DNA of 64,000 nt from Felixounavirus LF82P2. This document shows, in pieces, positions 50,827-64,000 of this stretch. A program made the translations under genes and the position numbers. The stretch's first letter is position 1; the number at the start of each line of letters is the position of its first letter. Under the pieces are notes generated by a model. The model was not told where the DNA came from, searched no databases, and saw only the letters and a list, made by a program, of their open reading frames with translations. The stretch is from the sequence record OZ035741.1; one strand, written 5' to 3'.

Positions 50827-51312
50827 ATGAATTACATGGAGATTCGACCATTTGACACAGCTAATGGTGAAGGGGTTCGTGTAAGCCTCTTCGTAGCTGG
50901 TTGTAAGCATCACTGTGAAGGCTGCTTTAACAGGGAGTCTTGGAAGTTTAATGCTGGTAAAGTATTTACTTATGCAAACCTCTACGTCATCATTAAGCTA
51001 ATGGATGATGAGGCCATCAGTGGGTTGTCAATACTTGGTGGGGAGCCTCTGGATGATAGAAACATTCAAGAGGTCACCAACATATGCAAGCGTATTAAAA
51101 CTGTTTATCCAGAAAAGTCTATATGGCTTTGGACAGGTTTTCAACTGCACGAAAAAATCCACTTAGATGTGATGAAATATGTTGACGTGGTGATTGATGG
51201 TAAGTATGATTCATCTAAACCAACAGTTAAACCATATCGTGGTTCTGATAACCAAAACCTCTGGAGAAAAGAGTATGGGTGGCAAGGTGATTGCCAATGG
51301 CGAGCAGAATGA
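50827..51312 (+). CDS. nrdG: anaerobic ribonucleotide reductase activating protein (radical SAM)
   Basis: radical-SAM cluster motif CKHHCEGCFN; size 161 aa. Confidence 0.85.
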   Translation: MNYMEIRPFDTANGEGVRVSLFVAGCKHHCEGCFNRESWKFNAGKVFTYANLYVIIKLMDDEAISGLSILGGEPLDDRNIQEVTNICKRIKTVYPEKSIWLWTGFQLHEKIHLDVMKYVDVVIDGKYDSSKPTVKPYRGSDNQNLWRKEYGWQGDCQWRAE

Positions 51313-52712: not shown

Positions 52713-52983
52713 AGAAAAGTGGGAGATTTTACCATTAGTCAGTGAAGGAGGTAATGGTTGTGAAATGTACATGATACGTGGTCATGTTCCAGAGCCAATT
52801 GCACTTGAGATGGTAAACAACTTTACAGATGGTTCTTACAAAGACTTAGGCGAACCAACTGTCAAGCAACAATGGGTTAAACCTGTACCAGACAGCACAG
52901 GTAACTGTAGTGTACTTTATCACGTTGTAGACCCTGCAAAATGCAAATCTGCAATGGCAGTAACAAACGTAACTTTTGATTGA
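52705..52983 (+). CDS. hypothetical protein
   Basis: 92 aa ORF. Confidence 0.3.
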   Translation: MAKEKWEILPLVSEGGNGCEMYMIRGHVPEPIALEMVNNFTDGSYKDLGEPTVKQQWVKPVPDSTGNCSVLYHVVDPAKCKSAMAVTNVTFD

Positions 52984-53876
52984 GAGAGAAAACTATGAAA
53001 ACATCTATCCGTGTTACAGTTCATTCACCAACTAAAGGGACTCATGAAGAAGAGTTTAACATCGTCCAATTCCCTTCTGGTGAGATTGGTGGACACTTTT
53101 CGCCAGAGTTTGTTGATTTTACTGCTTATGCAGCATCATCCATCAACAATGTGATTATGATTGTAAAAGGTTATGACAAGGACACATTGTTTGCTGTGGC
53201 ACTTGCTAAAGAAGCAATTGATGATTTAATTCCTCATGATTATGCTTTAAAGACTGTCATCTTTTACTACTTACCAAATGCACGATATGACCGTCACATG
53301 TTTAAAGGTGACGCAGCAGCTTTAAAGGTTTTTGCTAAACAGATTAATGCAATGGGATTTGGCGCAGTCTGTGCAGTTGACCCTCACAGTTATGTACCAG
53401 ATAACCTGTTTAACTGCTTCCAAAGTATTCCTCAAAAGGAGATTGCAGTCCACTATGCAAATGACCCTCTAATTGATTACTTAGTAGCCCCAGATGCAGG
53501 TGCTGCTAAGAAGATTGCAGAGACTGCTAAAGAGGTGGATAAACCATACATCACAATGTCTAAAGTGCGTAACCTTAAGACTGGTGAAATTACTGGTATG
53601 CGAATCCTTGATGATGTTGATTTGACAGATAAAACCGTCATGATTCTGGATGATATCTGTGATGGTGGTCGAACCTTCATAGAAGCAGCGAAGCATCTTC
53701 GTGAAGCAGGTGCAAAACGTGTGGAACTTTATGTAACACATGGTATCTTCTCTAAAGATGTTGAAAACCTTCTTGACAATGGTATCGACCATATTTACAC
53801 TACAAACTCTTTAGGCGAAGCTAAAGACCGTGGCTTAACACATTACAGTCAAGTTACTGTAGCAAACCTTGATTGA
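52980..53876 (+). CDS. ribose-phosphate pyrophosphokinase homologue (Prs-like; possibly ADP-ribose pyrophosphokinase)
   Basis: aligns by eye with E. coli Prs: AVDPHS vs TVDLHA, VAPDAGA vs VSPDIGG, PRPP loop VMILDDICDGGRT, AGAKRVELYVTHGIFS vs GAKRVFAYATHPIFS. Confidence 0.8.
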   Translation: MREKTMKTSIRVTVHSPTKGTHEEEFNIVQFPSGEIGGHFSPEFVDFTAYAASSINNVIMIVKGYDKDTLFAVALAKEAIDDLIPHDYALKTVIFYYLPNARYDRHMFKGDAAALKVFAKQINAMGFGAVCAVDPHSYVPDNLFNCFQSIPQKEIAVHYANDPLIDYLVAPDAGAAKKIAETAKEVDKPYITMSKVRNLKTGEITGMRILDDVDLTDKTVMILDDICDGGRTFIEAAKHLREAGAKRVELYVTHGIFSKDVENLLDNGIDHIYTTNSLGEAKDRGLTHYSQVTVANLD

Positions 53877-53885
53877 AAGTTTATA

Positions 53886-53906
53886 GGGGCTTAAAAGCCC
53901 CATTTT
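53886..53906 (+). terminator. hairpin (weak terminator/attenuator) between Prs-like and NAMPT-like genes
   Basis: GGGGC-TTAAAA-GCCCC followed by ATTTTG. Confidence 0.35.
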
Positions 53907-53921
53907 GAGAGAGATTAAAAG

Positions 53922-55703
53922 ATGACTAAATCACTTTATGCAGTACCAGCAGGTTTAAACGCAGATGCTTACAAATCTGGTCATGTTTACCAGTACCCTA
54001 GTGCAACAGAGTACTTGATGTTCAACCTGACACCACGTAGTGACAAATGGTTTAACAGCCCCTTAGCAATTGATGGTGTAGTAGCTTTTGGTATTCAACG
54101 TTTCGTTAAAGATTACTTGATAGACCACTGGAACGCCACTTTCTTTGAACGTGATAAAAAAGAAGCCATTGATGAAATCTTAGAAGTCATGAATGGTGTT
54201 CTGGGTAAAGATGCTATCAGTCGAGAGCATTGGGAAGCACTTCACGACTTAGGTTATCTACCAGTTGAAGTATACGCTGTAGAAGAAGGTACAGTTGTCC
54301 CTATGCGTGTCCCAATGATTGTTTTCCAGAACACTGTTTCAGGTTTCCATTGGGTAGCAGGTTATCTGGAAGATGCTTTCTCTGCTGAGATTTGGAAGGC
54401 TTGTACCATTGCAACTATTGCATTGCACTACAAACGTATCTGTAAGAAGTGGGCTGACCTTACTTGTGACAACGACTTACATTTGCCTTATCAGTGCCAT
54501 GACTTTGCTATGCGTGGTATGTCCGGCTTTACTGATGACGCATTTAACGCTGTAGGCCACTTAACCAGCTTTAAAGGAACTGATAGCTTCCCTGCTGTGT
54601 ATACGGCTAAACGAATCTATGGACAGTCCTACCCAATCTCTGATATTGGTAGCTCTGTACCAGCCACTGAGCACTCTGTAATGTGTGCAAACATTGCTTG
54701 GGAAGGTGGTAATGAGTTGATTGAAGAAGAAAGACGCTTTAAAGGTGAGTTACAAACCTTCCGTCGTTTCTTAACAGAAACTTACCCAACTGGTATTGCA
54801 AGTATTGTTTCAGATACTTATAACTTCTGGAGAACTGTGTCAGAAATCTTACCAGCACTCCGTAAAGAAATTATGGAACGTGATGGTAAACTGGTAATTC
54901 GCCCTGACTCTGGAGACCCTGTACATATTGTCACAGGTTATAAAGCAATCCACTTAGAGTGTGCTAAAAAGGCTTATTACGAGCACCTAAGCAAGCTTGA
55001 AGCCAGCGACACAATGTTGAATGCTGTTCTGAACATGAAGCTTGAAAACATCAATTATGGTATTGCTGGATGGCTACTGTCAGAAGGCTACGAAATGGTT
55101 GTTGACAGAGAAGACTTTGAAGTTGCTGATACAGTGCTGTTGAAAAATGCTTATATGGTTGGTTCTGCAAACGTTGTAACACGTCCTGTAGCGGAGATTG
55201 ATGGAGCTATCAAGACACTGTATAACATCTTTGGAGGAACTATCAACTCTAAAGGTTTTAAAGTACTGGATGAGCATATCGGGCTTATTTATGGCGACTC
55301 TATCACGCTGGAACGTGCAAACGAAATACTGAAGCGTTTGTATGAAATGGGTTTTGCAAGCTCTAACGTAGTGTTTGGTGTAGGTTCTTACACTTACCAG
55401 TACATGACTCGTGACACCTTTGCATTTGCTGTCAAAGCAACTCTTGCAAGCATTGGTGGTAAAGAGATTATGCTTGCAAAAGACCCTAAAACAGATAGTG
55501 GTGTTAAGAAATCTGCCTTTGGTGGTGTAGCACCTATGTGGGATGGTGATAAGCTGAAAGCTGTAGATGGCTATGGATTCCAGAGTTTTGCAGATGTACT
55601 TGACCACCCAGCTTGTGCTTTACGTTTAGTCTTTAGCGACTCTGAGCAGTTTGGTTACACAACTCTTGGGGATATTCGAAATAATATTGACAAGCAGCTT
55701 TAA
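53922..55703 (+). CDS. nicotinamide phosphoribosyltransferase homologue (NAMPT-like)
   Basis: aligns by eye with human NAMPT: NADAYKSGHVYQYP vs ATDSYKVTHYKQYP, CHDFAMRGMSG vs LHDFGYRGVSS, HLTSFKGTDS vs HLVNFKGTDT, SVPATEHS vs SVPAAEHS, IVSDTYN vs VVSDSYD, LVIRPDSGDP vs LIIRPDSGNP. Confidence 0.85.
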   Translation: MTKSLYAVPAGLNADAYKSGHVYQYPSATEYLMFNLTPRSDKWFNSPLAIDGVVAFGIQRFVKDYLIDHWNATFFERDKKEAIDEILEVMNGVLGKDAISREHWEALHDLGYLPVEVYAVEEGTVVPMRVPMIVFQNTVSGFHWVAGYLEDAFSAEIWKACTIATIALHYKRICKKWADLTCDNDLHLPYQCHDFAMRGMSGFTDDAFNAVGHLTSFKGTDSFPAVYTAKRIYGQSYPISDIGSSVPATEHSVMCANIAWEGGNELIEEERRFKGELQTFRRFLTETYPTGIASIVSDTYNFWRTVSEILPALRKEIMERDGKLVIRPDSGDPVHIVTGYKAIHLECAKKAYYEHLSKLEASDTMLNAVLNMKLENINYGIAGWLLSEGYEMVVDREDFEVADTVLLKNAYMVGSANVVTRPVAEIDGAIKTLYNIFGGTINSKGFKVLDEHIGLIYGDSITLERANEILKRLYEMGFASSNVVFGVGSYTYQYMTRDTFAFAVKATLASIGGKEIMLAKDPKTDSGVKKSAFGGVAPMWDGDKLKAVDGYGFQSFADVLDHPACALRLVFSDSEQFGYTTLGDIRNNIDKQL

Positions 55704-60285: not shown

Positions 60286-60834
60286 ATGAAGAAATTGATT
60301 CTAGGTTTGTGCTTAATGTTTACAGCACACTTATCTTATGCAGTTGACTGCCCAGAGCTATCAATTAGCCAAAAAGTGAACATGTTAAAAGCTTACCAGT
60401 ATGGCGAGAATAACATGGGTAAAGGTTGGGGTATCACTCTAGCAGCTATAGCCTTACAAGAGTCAGAGTTAGGTCTGAAGGTAGAAAATAAAAAGACACA
60501 TGATTATGGTATTTTCCAGAATCACTTGAAGACTGTTGTAAAGCGTAACAAAATTAGCCCTAATGTGGCTAAAAAGAAACTCTTAAGAGACTTTGATTAT
60601 GCTGCGAAGGAAACTCACAAAGAGCTTGAGTTTTGGACAAAGGTGCATGGTCAGCCAAAGTCAAAGAAGACTTTACAAAAAGTTTTAGCATCATATAATG
60701 CTGGGTATTCGTACAGAATCCCTAAAGCTAAGAAGTATTCTCAAGATGTCTATAACAACATGAAAGTAATTGCTCAATGTGAATTTGCAACAAACATTTC
60801 TAAGGTAAATCATGAAAAAATTAAGAAAGTCTGA
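60286..60834 (+). CDS. secreted lytic transglycosylase-like protein (SLT domain; candidate endolysin or virion peptidoglycan hydrolase)
   Basis: Sec signal peptide MKKLILGLCLMFTAHLSYA; SLT-like catalytic region AIALQESELG ... HDYGIFQN. Confidence 0.5.
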   Translation: MKKLILGLCLMFTAHLSYAVDCPELSISQKVNMLKAYQYGENNMGKGWGITLAAIALQESELGLKVENKKTHDYGIFQNHLKTVVKRNKISPNVAKKKLLRDFDYAAKETHKELEFWTKVHGQPKSKKTLQKVLASYNAGYSYRIPKAKKYSQDVYNNMKVIAQCEFATNISKVNHEKIKKV

Positions 60835-61507
60835 TGAAGTACTGTGTCATGCTTATGACTTACATCCTCATGAGTTAGGTCTTGATTCCTGTGTATGGTC
60901 TCCAGAACAGTGTAGGGATTTTGAAGACACTGCAAGAGAAGTTGTATGTTCACTTGAAGAGTTCCACACATCAGAACCAATTGTGAACGTTGTGGACAAA
61001 GAGACTGGACAATCTATAGGAGTAAGTCGTGATAGCTTAGTCATAGTCAATAAAGACCTTGTAGAAAAAGGGAATCTCATCTTAGCAGATATTGATGGTG
61101 TTCTTACAAATTTTAATCACGAAGATTGTTCAACGGAATTGACTGATGGGTCATTCTCACAGTACACTAATCTTCTTGATTCTGTAAGAGCAAAACCAAC
61201 GTATGTTTTTAGTATTATTGATGCAATTGCTAATCATGCTGCCATTGGACTCTTGACAGCGAGAGGTGAATCTCAGAGAATACCTACTGAGATGTTTTTA
61301 AGGCATAACATAGAGCATGACTACATGCTTTTTATGCGTGGTTTTGGAACTAACTCTATAAGTGCAGAAAGTTTGAAAGTGAGGATGATTCAGTCTTGCA
61401 TCCTGCCTTACTTTAATATAGTATGTTTTATAGAAGACACAGAGAAGAATGTGCAGAAGGTGAACAGAATCCTTCCACACATTAAAACCATGTTAGTTAA
61501 ACATTGA
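60812..61507 (+). CDS. HAD-like phosphatase (putative)
   Basis: possible HAD motif I LILADIDGVLT (DxDG[VT]); otherwise unassigned. Confidence 0.3.
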   Translation: MKKLRKSDEVLCHAYDLHPHELGLDSCVWSPEQCRDFEDTAREVVCSLEEFHTSEPIVNVVDKETGQSIGVSRDSLVIVNKDLVEKGNLILADIDGVLTNFNHEDCSTELTDGSFSQYTNLLDSVRAKPTYVFSIIDAIANHAAIGLLTARGESQRIPTEMFLRHNIEHDYMLFMRGFGTNSISAESLKVRMIQSCILPYFNIVCFIEDTEKNVQKVNRILPHIKTMLVKH

Positions 61508-61517
61508 GAGAAAACTT

Positions 61518-61982
61518 ATGAACAATATCATTACGGTAGCACTGGACGATACGGTAAACAAATCTGCAATAGTTCGTAAAATGATTCAAGGTAACTTTGA
61601 AGGTAAAATTTTTCGTGCTGTTAATGTAAAAGCTGATGGCAGCATTCGTGAATATCGTGCATTATTGAATGTTAAAAAACACGTAAAAGGTGCTGGTTCA
61701 ACTACTGCACACAAAGAAAACCTGATGACTATCTATGATATGGGCAAGGCTTCAGAGTTAGGTGCTGAAGGTATCGTTAAAGAAGGTGCTCCGTATCGCT
61801 CTTTCAATCTGGAAACTACTCTTATGCTTTCCTTTACAAGTGGTTCTAAAACAATCACTTATCTCTTTACTGATGCTGCAACGGTATCTGCTATTAAGGA
61901 TAGCACTGTCAAAGCTGGCGTAGTTGCTGCTGCAAAAGCTTCTTCGATGGCTGCGAATATCCTTGCTAAAGTCCTCGGTTAA
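61518..61982 (+). CDS. hypothetical protein
   Basis: 154 aa ORF followed by strong terminator. Confidence 0.35.
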   Translation: MNNIITVALDDTVNKSAIVRKMIQGNFEGKIFRAVNVKADGSIREYRALLNVKKHVKGAGSTTAHKENLMTIYDMGKASELGAEGIVKEGAPYRSFNLETTLMLSFTSGSKTITYLFTDAATVSAIKDSTVKAGVVAAAKASSMAANILAKVLG

Positions 61983-61993
61983 GGTTAAGATAC

Positions 61994-62015
61994 AGGCTCC
62001 TTCGGGAGCCTTTTT
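61994..62015 (+). terminator. intrinsic terminator
   Basis: AGGCTCC-TTCG-GGAGCCT then TTTTT. Confidence 0.65.
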
Positions 62016-62034: not shown

Positions 62035-62382
62035 ATGACATTTAAAGAGTTCTGTCAAGCTACTTTCATAATTGTTTTCTTAGTTGGTGCAGGTGTCTGG
62101 GGAGGATACTCTTACAGAGACTATCAAGTTGCTGAAACTGAGCTAAATAATGAGAAACTAATAAGTGTTGCTAAAGATGCTTATCAGGAAGGTTTAGCCA
62201 CACTCAGCACCAATTACAAAAATGATTTGAAAGATGTGCTTGCTAAGAATAAGCATACAAAAGAGGTACTAACATATGAAAAAACTAAGCCAGAGTTTTA
62301 TAATGTTTGTGTTACTGATAACTATGTCAGGGTGTTCAACGAACAAAGTGAGCAGTACATTCAAAAACTCCCAAGTAAGTGA
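62035..62382 (+). CDS. i-spanin-like protein (Rz-like; N-terminal TM plus periplasmic coiled coil)
   Basis: 115 aa; N-terminal TM FIIVFLVGAGVWGGY then helical charged domain; a lipoprotein ORF is embedded in its 3' end in another frame. Confidence 0.4.
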   Translation: MTFKEFCQATFIIVFLVGAGVWGGYSYRDYQVAETELNNEKLISVAKDAYQEGLATLSTNYKNDLKDVLAKNKHTKEVLTYEKTKPEFYNVCVTDNYVRVFNEQSEQYIQKLPSK

Positions 62383-62545
62383 GGGTGATAAGTACACCCA
62401 AGAAGAATCACGGTATATCATCAAAGGCAACACAGGCAGCGATGTAGCAGCAGCCCTTGAGTTCTATCGTGACGGCTTTTACCAGTGCACAATCAAAGCT
62501 AACAACCTTATTGACATGATTTTATTAGGGAATAAGCAGCAATGA
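62276..62545 (+). CDS. o-spanin-like lipoprotein (Rz1-like), overlapping i-spanin gene
   Basis: signal plus lipobox MKKLSQSFIMFVLLITMSG-C; starts inside the 62035-62382 ORF in a different frame; atypical for Rz1 (89 aa, not Pro-rich). Confidence 0.35.
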   Translation: MKKLSQSFIMFVLLITMSGCSTNKVSSTFKNSQVSEGDKYTQEESRYIIKGNTGSDVAAALEFYRDGFYQCTIKANNLIDMILLGNKQQ

Positions 62546-63140: not shown

Positions 63141-63342
63141 AAAGACACGAAAACTTATAAGGTCAGCAGTATTCATTGGACGAAATGAGGTCATCCCATT
63201 TACAGCAAATGATGTGATAGCTTACAGGAAGAACTTAGTATTCACTGACTGCTTACGTGGCTTCATCTCTGAACCATTGGAAGACTTTAAAAGTCGTTGT
63301 GGTAAAGGTATCATCATTCAAGAGGCAATTATTCATGGCTGA
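63115..63342 (+). CDS. hypothetical protein
   Basis: 75 aa ORF. Confidence 0.25.
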   Translation: MKVILARDKKTRKLIRSAVFIGRNEVIPFTANDVIAYRKNLVFTDCLRGFISEPLEDFKSRCGKGIIIQEAIIHG

Positions 63343-63535
63343 CTTCTGTAAAGACTGTTCTATCGAAATGTTCGGACGTGATACAGGTGACTTAAAAGGT
63401 CTTATCACTGAAGATGATTTTAAAGCTGGTTATGCAATGCCAGTAATCTGTGAAGGTTGTGGGTGCATCTGGGTAGACCATGAGGGGCAACGTGTAAAAC
63501 CTTCAGAAGATAAAGAATCTTGGGAGAGATGCTAA
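63335..63535 (+). CDS. small Cys-rich (zinc-binding) protein
   Basis: internal ATG 63335 (MADFCKDCS...); CKDC ... CEGCGC pattern; track ORF starts at 63257. Confidence 0.3.
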   Translation: MADFCKDCSIEMFGRDTGDLKGLITEDDFKAGYAMPVICEGCGCIWVDHEGQRVKPSEDKESWERC

Positions 63536-64000
63536 ATGGGTATTGTAAAAATCATCAATGGTGATATCTTTGCTGCATTTGATAAAGGTAAGTTTGACAT
63601 CATTGGTCATGGTTGTAACTGCATGAACCTAATGGGCGCAGGTATCGCTGACAAGATTTCTAAACTTTACCCAAAAGCATATGAGACCGATACAGAAGTT
63701 TATCTCTATGCAGGTGGTATAGGTCACAAACCCTGTGAGAATTTACTAGGTAATTTCTCTGTAGCACGCTTAAAACAAGGTCGTATAGCTAACCTTTACA
63801 CTCAGCTTAAGACTGGTAAAGATGCCCGATACAGTGCTTTAGAGTCATCTTTGAAACAGCTTAACAGATACTGTGAAGTTAATCAGTTGAAGAAAGTTGG
63901 TTTACCTATGATTGGTGCAGGTATCGGTGGACTTGACCCTCAAGCCATCACAGTTATCATCAATCAGGTGATGAAGAGTGTAGATGTTTATCTGTATGTC
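63536..64000 (+). CDS. macrodomain protein, TARG1/DarG-like (3' partial, runs off window)
   Basis: ATG 63536, no stop before window end; translation MGIVKIINGDIFAAFDKGKFDIIGHGCNCMNLMGAGIADKI ... VGLPMIGAGIGGLDPQAI parallels TARG1-type macrodomain motifs (HCIS.D.RMGAGIA and MPRIGCGLDRL). Confidence 0.55.
   Translation, partial: MGIVKIINGDIFAAFDKGKFDIIGHGCNCMNLMGAGIADKISKLYPKAYETDTEVYLYAGGIGHKPCENLLGNFSVARLKQGRIANLYTQLKTGKDARYSALESSLKQLNRYCEVNQLKKVGLPMIGAGIGGLDPQAITVIINQVMKSVDVYLYV

What the first reader, a model, noticed from the sequence alone, without database searches (positions are those of the whole stretch)
63536..64000. TARG1/DarG-like macrodomain ORF at the window edge: candidate ADP-ribosylation reversal enzyme
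The final ORF (truncated by the window) has the hallmark pattern of TARG1-type macrodomains: GDIF, then DIIGHGCNCMNLMGAGIA, and a distal LPMIGAGIGGLD loop. Macrodomains of this subfamily bind and hydrolyse ADP-ribose adducts; in bacteria the DarG antitoxin macrodomain removes DarT-catalysed ADP-ribosylation of DNA, and DarTG is an anti-phage system. A phage-encoded homologue, in a genome that also carries an NAD+/ADP-ribose module 8-10 kb upstream, suggests a counter-defence against ADP-ribosylating immunity or a role in processing ADP-ribose derivatives.
Basis: partly seen in the sequence, partly recalled or inferred. Interest (0 to 1): 0.65.

Follow-up and report, generated by a model that had tools for sequence, protein, structure and literature searches.

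The report
Phage macrodomain, likely anti-DarT2 enzyme
The last gene in the window is a real, conserved Felix O1-type phage gene for an ADP-ribose-removing macrodomain, whose closest studied relative is the phage T4 protein Tk.4/AdfM that protects T4 from the bacterial DarTG2 defence, so it is a plausible but unsurprising counter-defence gene.

Summary
An ORF starts at ATG 63536 (+) and runs off the window after 155 codons. Identical Felixounavirus genomes show the full gene is 261 aa (Felix O1 gp13, annotated "phosphatase").

The TARG1/DarG catalytic lysine is not conserved. The family has an invariant NLYTQ motif, with Gln90 at that position, and TARG1 Asp125 is Gly131. This is the active-site pattern of S. 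coelicolor SCO6735 (Asn27/Gln85/Gly128 = Asn28/Gln90/Gly129 here). SCO6735 has been shown to remove DarT-made ADP-ribose from thymidine in DNA.

The nearest characterised relative is T4 Tk.4 (35% identity, same motifs). A 2025 preprint named it AdfM because deleting it sensitises T4 to DarTG2.

Most likely function: removal of DarT2's ADP-ribose from phage DNA. This has not been tested for this phage.

What is new is a roughly 105-aa C-terminal domain, found only in Ounavirinae-type macro proteins, with no detectable fold or sequence relatives.

The Prs-Nampt NAD module upstream is real, but nothing links it to this gene. Verdict: new member of a known kind; modest interest.

The parts
63536..64000 (+). 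First 155 of 261 codons of the macrodomain gene (Felix O1 gp13 / ekra_14 orthologue). This covers essentially the whole macrodomain. The gene would end at window-equivalent position 64321.
63596..63649 (+). Loop 1, DIIGHGCNCMNLMGAGIA (aa 21-38). It contains the HGCNC motif with Asn28 (nt 63617-63619) and the Gly-rich loop expected to bind ADP-ribose.
   Evidence: H25, G26, N28, C29, M33, G36 and A38 are invariant in 30 family members. Asn28 aligns with SCO6735 Asn27, with the DarG Asn and with PhiKZ AdfM Asn23. Mutating those residues reduces or abolishes activity (PMC9411070; PMC13309987).
63791..63805 (+). NLYTQ motif (aa 86-90). Gln90 (nt 63803-63805) occupies the position of the catalytic Lys84 of TARG1 and Lys80 of DarG.
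   Evidence: N86, L87, T89 and Q90 are invariant in the family. The profile and MAFFT alignments put Gln90 in the column of TARG1 K84, DarG K80, SCO6735 Q85, BT1257 Q and T4 Tk.4 Q. SCO6735 Q85A is inactive on dT-ADPr.
63902..63937 (+). Loop 2, LPMIGAGIGGLD (aa 123-134), the second Gly-rich loop, which aligns with the loop 2 region of the solved homologues. Gly129 corresponds to SCO6735 Gly128. Gly131 sits where TARG1 has the catalytic Asp125.
   Evidence: P124, G127 and G129 are invariant; alignments; SCO6735 G128E has reduced activity.

Best explanation
The gene encodes a two-domain phage protein. Its N-terminal macrodomain (aa 1-156) belongs to the ALC1-like (TARG1/DarG/SCO6735) class. It most likely acts as an ADP-ribosyl glycohydrolase that strips ADP-ribose from thymidine bases in phage single-stranded DNA after modification by the host DarT2 toxin. 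That would neutralise the DarTG2 abortive-infection defence, as reported genetically for its T4 relative Tk.4/AdfM. Catalysis would follow the SCO6735 mechanism. In that mechanism a Gln (here Gln90), held in place by an Asn (here Asn28), positions the distal ribose for attack by a backbone-activated water. This differs from the lysine-based chemistry of TARG1 and DarG.

Shown here: the ORF, the fold, the class, the active-site pattern, homology to Tk.4, and conservation and synteny across Ounavirinae-type phages.
Inferred: the substrate (dT-ADPr on DNA) and the anti-DarTG2 role in this phage.
Unknown: the role of the lineage-specific C-terminal domain (aa ~157-261).
For: - Macro fold and class.
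- Closest characterised homologue is T4 Tk.4: 35% identity over aa 3-157, E 2e-24, sharing the HGCNC, NLYTQ and IGAGIG motifs. Tk.4 is the only hit in the T4 genome, and this ORF is the only Tk.4-like ORF in the window.
- A tk.4 knockout sensitises T4 to DarTG2. It was the single significant hit in a transposon screen (preprint 10.1101/2025.11.20.689424).
- SCO6735 has the same Asn/Gln/Gly constellation. It hydrolyses DarT-made dT-ADPr in vitro and rescues cells from DarT. Q85A is dead and N27S nearly dead (PMC9411070; alignment).
- A second, lysine-type phage macrodomain (PhiKZ gp104 AdfM) removes DarT2 marks from DNA in vitro (PMC13309987). Macrodomain-based anti-DarT2 defence is therefore an established phage strategy.
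- The gene is conserved in 257 phage records at full length, and the macro part in 2,792 of 50,697 records, almost all of them large virulent phages.
Against: - No experiment exists for any Felixounavirus protein.
- The T4 evidence is a preprint, and its enzymology is inferred rather than measured.
- The DarG/TARG1 catalytic lysine is absent.
- The family lacks the 5-aa longer 'mobile loop' that the SCO6735 authors link to high activity on DNA.
- The HxCNC motif is also shared with yeast Poa1p, an ADP-ribose-1''-phosphate phosphatase.
- SCO6735-type enzymes also act on U-ADPr in RNA and on protein ADP-ribosylation, so the substrate cannot be fixed from sequence.
- The gene lies between two terminator-like sites (one after the gene ending at 61982, one just past the macro stop) together with the spanin genes. 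Early expression therefore cannot be assumed.
Confidence: 0.6

Rival explanations
1. It reverses a different macromolecular ADP-ribosylation. Candidates are uracil-linked ADP-ribose on RNA, or protein (Glu/Asp) ADP-ribosylation, made by another host defence ADP-ribosyltransferase or by a phage-encoded one. DarT2-modified DNA would then not be its main substrate.
For: SCO6735 shares this active-site pattern. It removes U-ADPr from RNA (PMC13036486) and protein mono-ADP-ribosylation. The survey PMC9503650 notes that substrate ranges of phage macrodomains are largely unstudied. The extra C-terminal domain is absent from T4 Tk.4 and could redirect specificity.
Against: The only genetic phenotype known for a close homologue is DarTG2 sensitivity. 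No ADP-ribosyltransferase was detected next to the gene. SCO6735 is inactive on 2'-OH RNA ADP-ribosylation, and the same paper reports it inactive on 5'-phosphate-linked marks in its results section while its discussion calls it active on RNA phosphate ends.
Confidence: 0.18
2. It is a small-molecule ADP-ribose-derivative hydrolase, as the database label 'phosphatase' implies. It would be a Poa1p-like ADP-ribose-1''-phosphate phosphatase or an O-acetyl-ADP-ribose deacetylase. It might clean up by-products of RNA repair or feed the phage's NAD metabolism.
For: The HGCNC...GAGIA motif is shared with Poa1p (HSCNC...GGGIA). Poa1p is among the top sequence and structure hits. A homologue is named 'Poa1p_like' by NCBI. 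A polynucleotide-kinase/HAD-phosphatase-like gene (60812-61507) and a Prs+Nampt module (52980-55703) are in the same genome arm.
Against: The 'phosphatase' label derives only from the generic A1pp/macro motif (T4 annotation). At the Gln90 position Poa1p has Ser, not the invariant Gln. No KptA/Tpt1-type enzyme that would generate Appr>p was seen. The NAD genes are 8-10 kb away, outside the stretch bounded by the terminator-like sites. Tk.4 homologues occur in thousands of phages irrespective of Nampt (that T4 lacks Nampt is my own knowledge).
Confidence: 0.12
3. It acts mainly without catalysis. It might bind and inhibit the DarT toxin directly, as the DarG C-terminal domain and ICP1 AdfB do. 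Alternatively it might sequester an ADP-ribose-derived immune signal.
For: Catalytically dead SCO6735 Q85A still inhibits DarT by interaction. ICP1 AdfB is proposed to neutralise DarT by direct interaction (PMC11481870). The orphan C-terminal domain could be a protein-binding module, and its pI is not consistently basic across the family (4.6-8.8).
Against: All residues needed for SCO6735 catalysis are invariant across the family, which argues for selection on enzymatic activity. T4 Tk.4 protects without any C-terminal domain. There is no similarity to the DarG C-terminal domain; the DarG HMMs match positions 4-154 of 338 only.
Confidence: 0.07

Closest known systems
Phage T4 Tk.4 = AdfM (anti-DarT factor Macrodomain; NP_049723; bioRxiv 10.1101/2025.11.20.689424)
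   Same: Same macrodomain lineage: 35% identity across the whole domain (E 2e-24). It shares the HGCNC, NLYTQ (Gln instead of Lys) and IGAGIG motifs. Both come from large virulent enterobacterial myoviruses, and both are annotated 'phosphatase'.
   Different: Tk.4 is a bare 155-aa macrodomain. The Felix O1-type protein carries an extra ~105-aa C-terminal domain. Only Tk.4 has a genetic phenotype (DarTG2 sensitivity on deletion). Neither protein has published enzymology.
Streptomyces coelicolor SCO6735 (PDB 5E3B) and Bacteroides BT1257 (2AFC/2FG1): Gln-type ALC1-like macrodomains
   Different: Only about 22-23% identity. The phage family lacks the 5-residue longer 'mobile loop' after the Gln. 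SCO6735 is a cellular, DNA-damage-induced protein rather than a phage one, and it has no C-terminal extension.
DarG antitoxin macrodomain (M. tuberculosis 5M3I, T. aquaticus 5M31, T. africanus 7OMU) and PhiKZ gp104 AdfM
   Different: DarG and PhiKZ AdfM have the catalytic Lys in an FPTK motif, where this family has NLYTQ. Identity to PhiKZ AdfM is only 22% (E 5e-4). There is no DarG C-terminal DarT-binding domain and no adjacent darT. The score is far below the DarG equivalog cut-off (46.8 against 250).
Human TARG1/OARD1 (C6orf130; 4J5R, 2LGR)
   Different: The catalytic dyad Lys84/Asp125 is replaced by Gln90/Gly131.
Yeast Poa1p (6LFQ-6LFU), ADP-ribose-1''-phosphate phosphatase
   Different: Poa1p has Ser where this family has the invariant Gln, and it has a long insertion before loop 2. 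No phosphatase activity has been shown for any phage member.

Membership tests
Macrodomain superfamily (Pfam PF01661) | Significant match to the Macro HMM above the gathering score | tested here: met
   32.4 bits against a cut-off of 22, E 1e-7, covering profile positions 2-115 of 118. The full-length protein scores 30.5 bits.
Macrodomain superfamily (Pfam PF01661) | Three-layer alpha/beta/alpha macro fold | tested here: met
Macrodomain superfamily (Pfam PF01661) | Binds ADP-ribose in the cleft formed by the two Gly-rich loops | not testable with these tools
   Loops MGAGIA and IGAGIGG are present and invariant. Binding itself needs ITC or a crystal structure.
ALC1-like class (TARG1 / DarG / SCO6735 / Poa1p) | Nearest sequence and structure neighbours are members of this class rather than MacroD, PARG or macroH2A types | tested here: met
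TARG1-type hydrolase | Catalytic dyad Lys84 / Asp125 | tested here: not met
   Gln90 and Gly131 occupy these columns. Gln90 is invariant in 30 homologues; the Gly131 column varies (Ala in some members).
DarG antitoxin (NCBIfam NF048014 equivalog) | Score at or above the equivalog cut-off | tested here: not met
   46.8 bits against a cut-off of 250.
DarG antitoxin (NCBIfam NF048014 equivalog) | Catalytic Lys80 in the FPTK motif | tested here: not met
   The motif here is NLYTQ; Gln90 aligns with Lys80.
DarG antitoxin (NCBIfam NF048014 equivalog) | C-terminal DarT-binding domain | tested here: not met
   The DarG HMMs match only positions 4-154 of 338 (NCBIfam) and 18-146 of 329 (PADLOC). The C-terminal domain here has no detectable relatives.
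DarG antitoxin (NCBIfam NF048014 equivalog) | Encoded next to a darT toxin gene | tested here: not met
   The upstream neighbours are 65-115-aa phage proteins of unknown function (the small hypothetical genes; the spanins were not scanned). The downstream ORFs have no Pfam hit above threshold.
SCO6735-type (Gln-type) dT-ADPr hydrolase | Asn27 / Gln85 / Gly128 constellation required for dT-ADPr hydrolysis (PMC9411070) | tested here: met
   Asn28, Gln90 and Gly129 fall in the same MAFFT columns. All three are invariant in the family.
SCO6735-type (Gln-type) dT-ADPr hydrolase | Extended (+5 aa) mobile loop after the Gln, characteristic of the SCO6735/BT1257 subclass | tested here: not met
   The TGSKG-type insertion is present only in SCO6735 and BT1257. 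The phage proteins have the short loop, like DarG and TARG1.
T4 Tk.4 / AdfM-type phage anti-DarT2 macrodomain | Sequence homology with shared signature motifs (HGCNC, NLYTQ, IGAGIG) | tested here: met
   BLASTP gives 35% identity, E 2e-24, over aa 3-157. Motifs are shown. The hits are unique in both directions.
T4 Tk.4 / AdfM-type phage anti-DarT2 macrodomain | Protects the phage from DarTG2 | not testable with these tools
   Needs plaque assays on DarTG2-expressing hosts. Only T4 Tk.4 has been tested.
Poa1p-type ADP-ribose-1''-phosphate phosphatase | Appr-1''-p phosphatase activity | not testable with these tools
   There is only motif-level resemblance (HxCNC). The Gln90 position is Ser in Poa1p.

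The most novel reading that the evidence does not exclude
The ~105-aa C-terminal domain has no sequence or structural relatives outside Ounavirinae-type macro proteins. The full-length AF2 model is confident overall (pTM 0.89), which would be consistent with this domain packing against the macrodomain. It might give the enzyme a second, unprecedented activity. One possibility is a new toxin-binding module that directly inhibits DarT, a convergent analogue of the DarG C-terminal domain. Another is a targeting module that redirects the Gln-type macrodomain to a different ADP-ribosylated substrate or defence system than T4 Tk.4 handles.
Probability: 0.2. Interest if true: 0.5.

Novelty: new member of a known kind. 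Interest (0 to 1): 0.3.

Why it matters
Felix O1-like phages are used for Salmonella and E. coli typing, biocontrol and therapy. Knowing that they carry a probable anti-DarTG2 enzyme helps predict host range on strains that carry DarTG.

Two mechanistic points may be useful:
- The widespread T4 Tk.4-type phage macrodomains (about 5% of phage genomes) have the SCO6735-type Gln active site, not the DarG lysine. The two proteins now both called 'AdfM' (T4 Tk.4 and PhiKZ gp104) are therefore different lineages, probably with different chemistry.
- The Ounavirinae version adds an orphan domain of unknown role.

Neither point changes the overall picture. Phage macrodomains that undo host ADP-ribosylation are already an established concept.

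Tried and rejected
1. TARG1-type or DarG-type catalysis was rejected. Lys84/Lys80 and Asp125 are replaced by Gln90 and Gly131.
2. DarG membership was rejected. The score is far below the cut-off, there is no C-terminal DarG domain and there is no darT neighbour.
3. C-terminal domain identification failed:
   - Pfam gives only a sub-threshold PH hit (E 0.19).
   - BFVD hits only its own family.
   - A profile search of 1.84 billion representatives finds only macro-fused family members, two gene fragments and a few long proteins matched in several short stretches, which I take to be spurious.
   - The afdb50 library was unavailable.
   - Charge and pI show no consistent basic character.
   I therefore do not call it a PH or DNA-binding domain.
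4. A functional link to the NAD module was examined. Prs (52980-53876) and Nampt (53922-55703) are confirmed. They lie outside the stretch bounded by terminator-like sites at about 61994-62011 and just past the macro stop. No NMN adenylyltransferase or Nudix gene was found among the neighbours scanned.
5. The promoter scan of the region was no better than shuffled sequence (13 sites against 9.3 +/- 2.9), so expression timing is left open.
6. Literature searches for Felixounavirus plus macro domain or DarTG found nothing relevant.
7. A hunch that the 180-aa ORF 1 kb downstream in LF82P5 (N-terminal 'CYHGT') might be an ADP-ribosyltransferase found no support. There was no Pfam or PDB hit, and PHROGs lists it as unknown function.
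8. The small upstream ORFs in this window and in a distant syntenic phage (L005) show no significant similarity. No conserved partner gene is therefore claimed.

Full report
**Observation.** The + strand carries an ATG at 63536, placed immediately after the TAA stop of the preceding small ORF (TAAATG). The frame stays open to the last base of the window, giving 155 codons. The ORF is therefore real, and it is cut by the window edge.

**Origin and full length.** The last 2 kb of the window are 100% identical to several Felixounavirus genomes (LF82P5, LF82P3). They are 96% identical to Salmonella phage Felix O1. In these genomes the ORF continues to 261 aa. This is Felix O1 ORF13/NP_944801, annotated 'phosphatase', and ekra_14, annotated 'putative phosphatase'. 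About 321 nt of the gene lie beyond the window.

**What the N-terminal part is.**
- Pfam Macro scores above its gathering threshold (32.4 bits against 22).
- PHROG 335 ('phosphatase') matches with E 2e-70.
- The NCBIfam and PADLOC DarG models match the macro part with E about 1e-12. That is far below the DarG equivalog cut-off (46.8 bits against 250), and only the macro half of those models is matched.
- A profile of 30 homologues hits only TARG1, DarG, SCO6735, Poa1p and BT1257 among solved structures (E 4e-17 to 1e-13).
- An AlphaFold2 model of a 95%-identical family member is confident (pLDDT 91.7, pTM 0.89).

**Active site.** The family has an invariant NLYTQ motif.
- In both the HMM alignment to TARG1 and a MAFFT alignment with eight reference macrodomains, Gln90 falls in the column of the catalytic lysine. 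That is Lys84 in TARG1, Lys80 in DarG, and the FPTK lysine in PhiKZ gp104.
- Gly131 falls where TARG1 has Asp125.

The same column is also Gln in S. coelicolor SCO6735 (Gln85), in BT1257 and in T4 Tk.4. SCO6735 has been characterised (PMC9411070):
- It efficiently removes DarT-made ADP-ribose from thymidine in DNA and protects cells from DarT.
- Q85A abolishes activity, N27S nearly abolishes it, and G128E reduces it.
- The proposed mechanism uses a backbone-positioned water rather than a lysine nucleophile.

Asn28, Gln90 and Gly129 of the phage protein align with exactly these three residues. All three are invariant in the family. The phage proteins do lack the five-residue longer 'mobile loop' that typifies the SCO6735/BT1257 subclass.

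**Closest characterised relative.** The Felix O1 record itself points to the T4 '17.5 kDa protein in the tk-vs intergenic region'.
- I retrieved T4 tk.4. It is 35% identical over the whole macrodomain (E 2e-24) and shares HGCNC, NLYTQ and IGAGIG.
- Tk.4 is the only hit in the T4 genome. The ORF at 63536 is the only Tk.4-like sequence in the window.
- A November 2025 preprint (10.1101/2025.11.20.689424) found tk.4 as the single gene conditionally required on a DarTG2-expressing host. It confirmed this with a clean knockout and named the gene adfM. Enzymatic removal of ADP-ribose was inferred there, not measured.
- Independently, PhiKZ gp104 was shown in vitro to erase DarT2 marks from DNA (PMC13309987). 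It is also named AdfM, but it is a DarG-like, lysine-type macrodomain only 22% identical to our protein.

This gene is an untested member of the T4-type lineage.

**Distribution and context.**
- tblastn finds the macro part in 2,792 of 50,697 phage records. Most are large virulent phages of enterobacteria, Pseudomonas, Vibrio, Acinetobacter and Aeromonas.
- Only 257 records cover at least 80% of the query. These are Felixounavirus and related Ounavirinae such as Sf13; a Suspvirus (SUSP2) two-domain homologue appears in BFVD.
- Two distant metagenomic homologues (33-35% identity) keep both the two-domain architecture and the synteny rIIB ... SLT-like ... HAD/PNK-like ... macro.
- In the window, terminator-like hairpins flank the block of genes running from the spanins (62035-62545) through four small unknown ORFs to the macro gene. 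One lies after the gene ending at 61982, the other just past the macro stop.
- Promoter-like sites are no more frequent than in shuffled sequence, so expression timing is unknown.

**NAD module.** It lies 8-10 kb upstream, beyond rIIA/rIIB and the lysis genes. I found no evidence that ties it to the macro gene.

**The C-terminal domain.** Residues ~157-261 form a helix, six or seven strands and a helix.
- It has no Pfam family; the only hit is a sub-threshold PH match (E 0.19).
- In BFVD it has no neighbour apart from its own family.
- A profile search of 1.84 billion representative proteins finds it only fused to this macrodomain, plus two fragments and a few long proteins matched in several short stretches, which I take to be spurious.
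- It does not resemble the DarG C-terminal domain, and it is not consistently basic.

It is a lineage-specific orphan domain of unknown role. This is the only really new element in the finding.

**Mechanism and rivals.**
- Best explanation (about 0.6): a Gln-type ADP-ribosyl glycohydrolase that removes DarT2's thymidine-linked ADP-ribose from phage DNA.
- Rival 1 (0.18): reversal of another macromolecular ADP-ribosylation, such as RNA uracil or protein marks. SCO6735-type enzymes do act on these.
- Rival 2 (0.12): the annotated 'phosphatase' role on ADP-ribose-1''-phosphate or other small ADP-ribose derivatives. This rests only on motif resemblance to Poa1p.
- Rival 3 (0.07): a mainly non-catalytic mode, such as DarT binding or signal sequestration. 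Strict conservation of the catalytic constellation makes this less likely.

**Verdict.** The gene is a new member of a known kind, with a modest twist in the orphan C-terminal domain.

Noticed in passing
window 63338-63535 (+): A 65-aa ORF with two Cys pairs (CKDC ... CEGCGC, zinc-ribbon-like). Its TAA stop abuts the macro gene's ATG (TAAATG), which suggests translational coupling. It belongs to phrog_2210 (unknown function) and is Felix O1 ORF12, 'Phage conserved protein'. A 63-aa ORF occupies the same position in a distant syntenic phage (L005) but shows no significant similarity, only a short shared Cys-pair (CxxCG) match.
   Followed up: partly
window 52980-55703 (+): NAD salvage module: a PRPP-synthetase-like protein (Pribosyltran/Pribosyl_synth) followed by a 593-aa nicotinamide phosphoribosyltransferase (NAPRTase + NAMPT_N). 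No NMN adenylyltransferase was seen among the neighbours scanned. It may relate to the phage NAD+-reconstitution counter-defence, which I recall from the literature and did not check here.
   Followed up: partly
L003:5381-5586 (window-equivalent ~64380-64585, just beyond the window end): The ~520-nt gene-free stretch after the macro gene starts with a strong terminator-like hairpin (17-bp stem, L003:5352-5393). It then holds four spaced direct repeats with the core TCATTTT(A/C)(G/A)AA(T/C)TGTGCAGGTA, at 39-84-nt spacing. These could be repeated promoter or operator-like elements or iterons.
   Followed up: no
L003:6324-6866 (outside the window; 1 kb downstream of the macro gene in LF82P5): A 180-aa ORF beginning MKCYHGTTQENF. 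The YHGT motif reminded me of the NAD-binding motif of H-Y-E ADP-ribosyltransferases and KptA. There is no Pfam or PDB hit, and PHROG 3303 is of unknown function. This is a memory-based lead only. No structure prediction quota was left to test it.
   Followed up: partly
window 62035-62545 (+): Overlapping spanin pair (i-spanin at 62035-62382; the o-spanin is embedded and overlapping, annotated in phage ekra at the equivalent of ~62324-62545). It lies between the same two terminator-like sites as the macro gene. This is an unusual neighbourhood for a presumed early counter-defence gene.
   Followed up: no
literature: Two unrelated-lineage phage macrodomains now share the name AdfM. T4 Tk.4 is Gln-type (NLYTQ). 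PhiKZ gp104 is DarG-like and Lys-type (FPTK). They are only about 22-24% identical to each other's families and probably use different chemistry.
   Followed up: yes
window 50827-51312 (+): A 161-aa protein with a 4Fe-4S single-cluster/radical-SAM domain (Fer4_12, E 4e-43). From memory this looks like an anaerobic ribonucleotide reductase activase (NrdG-like).
   Followed up: no
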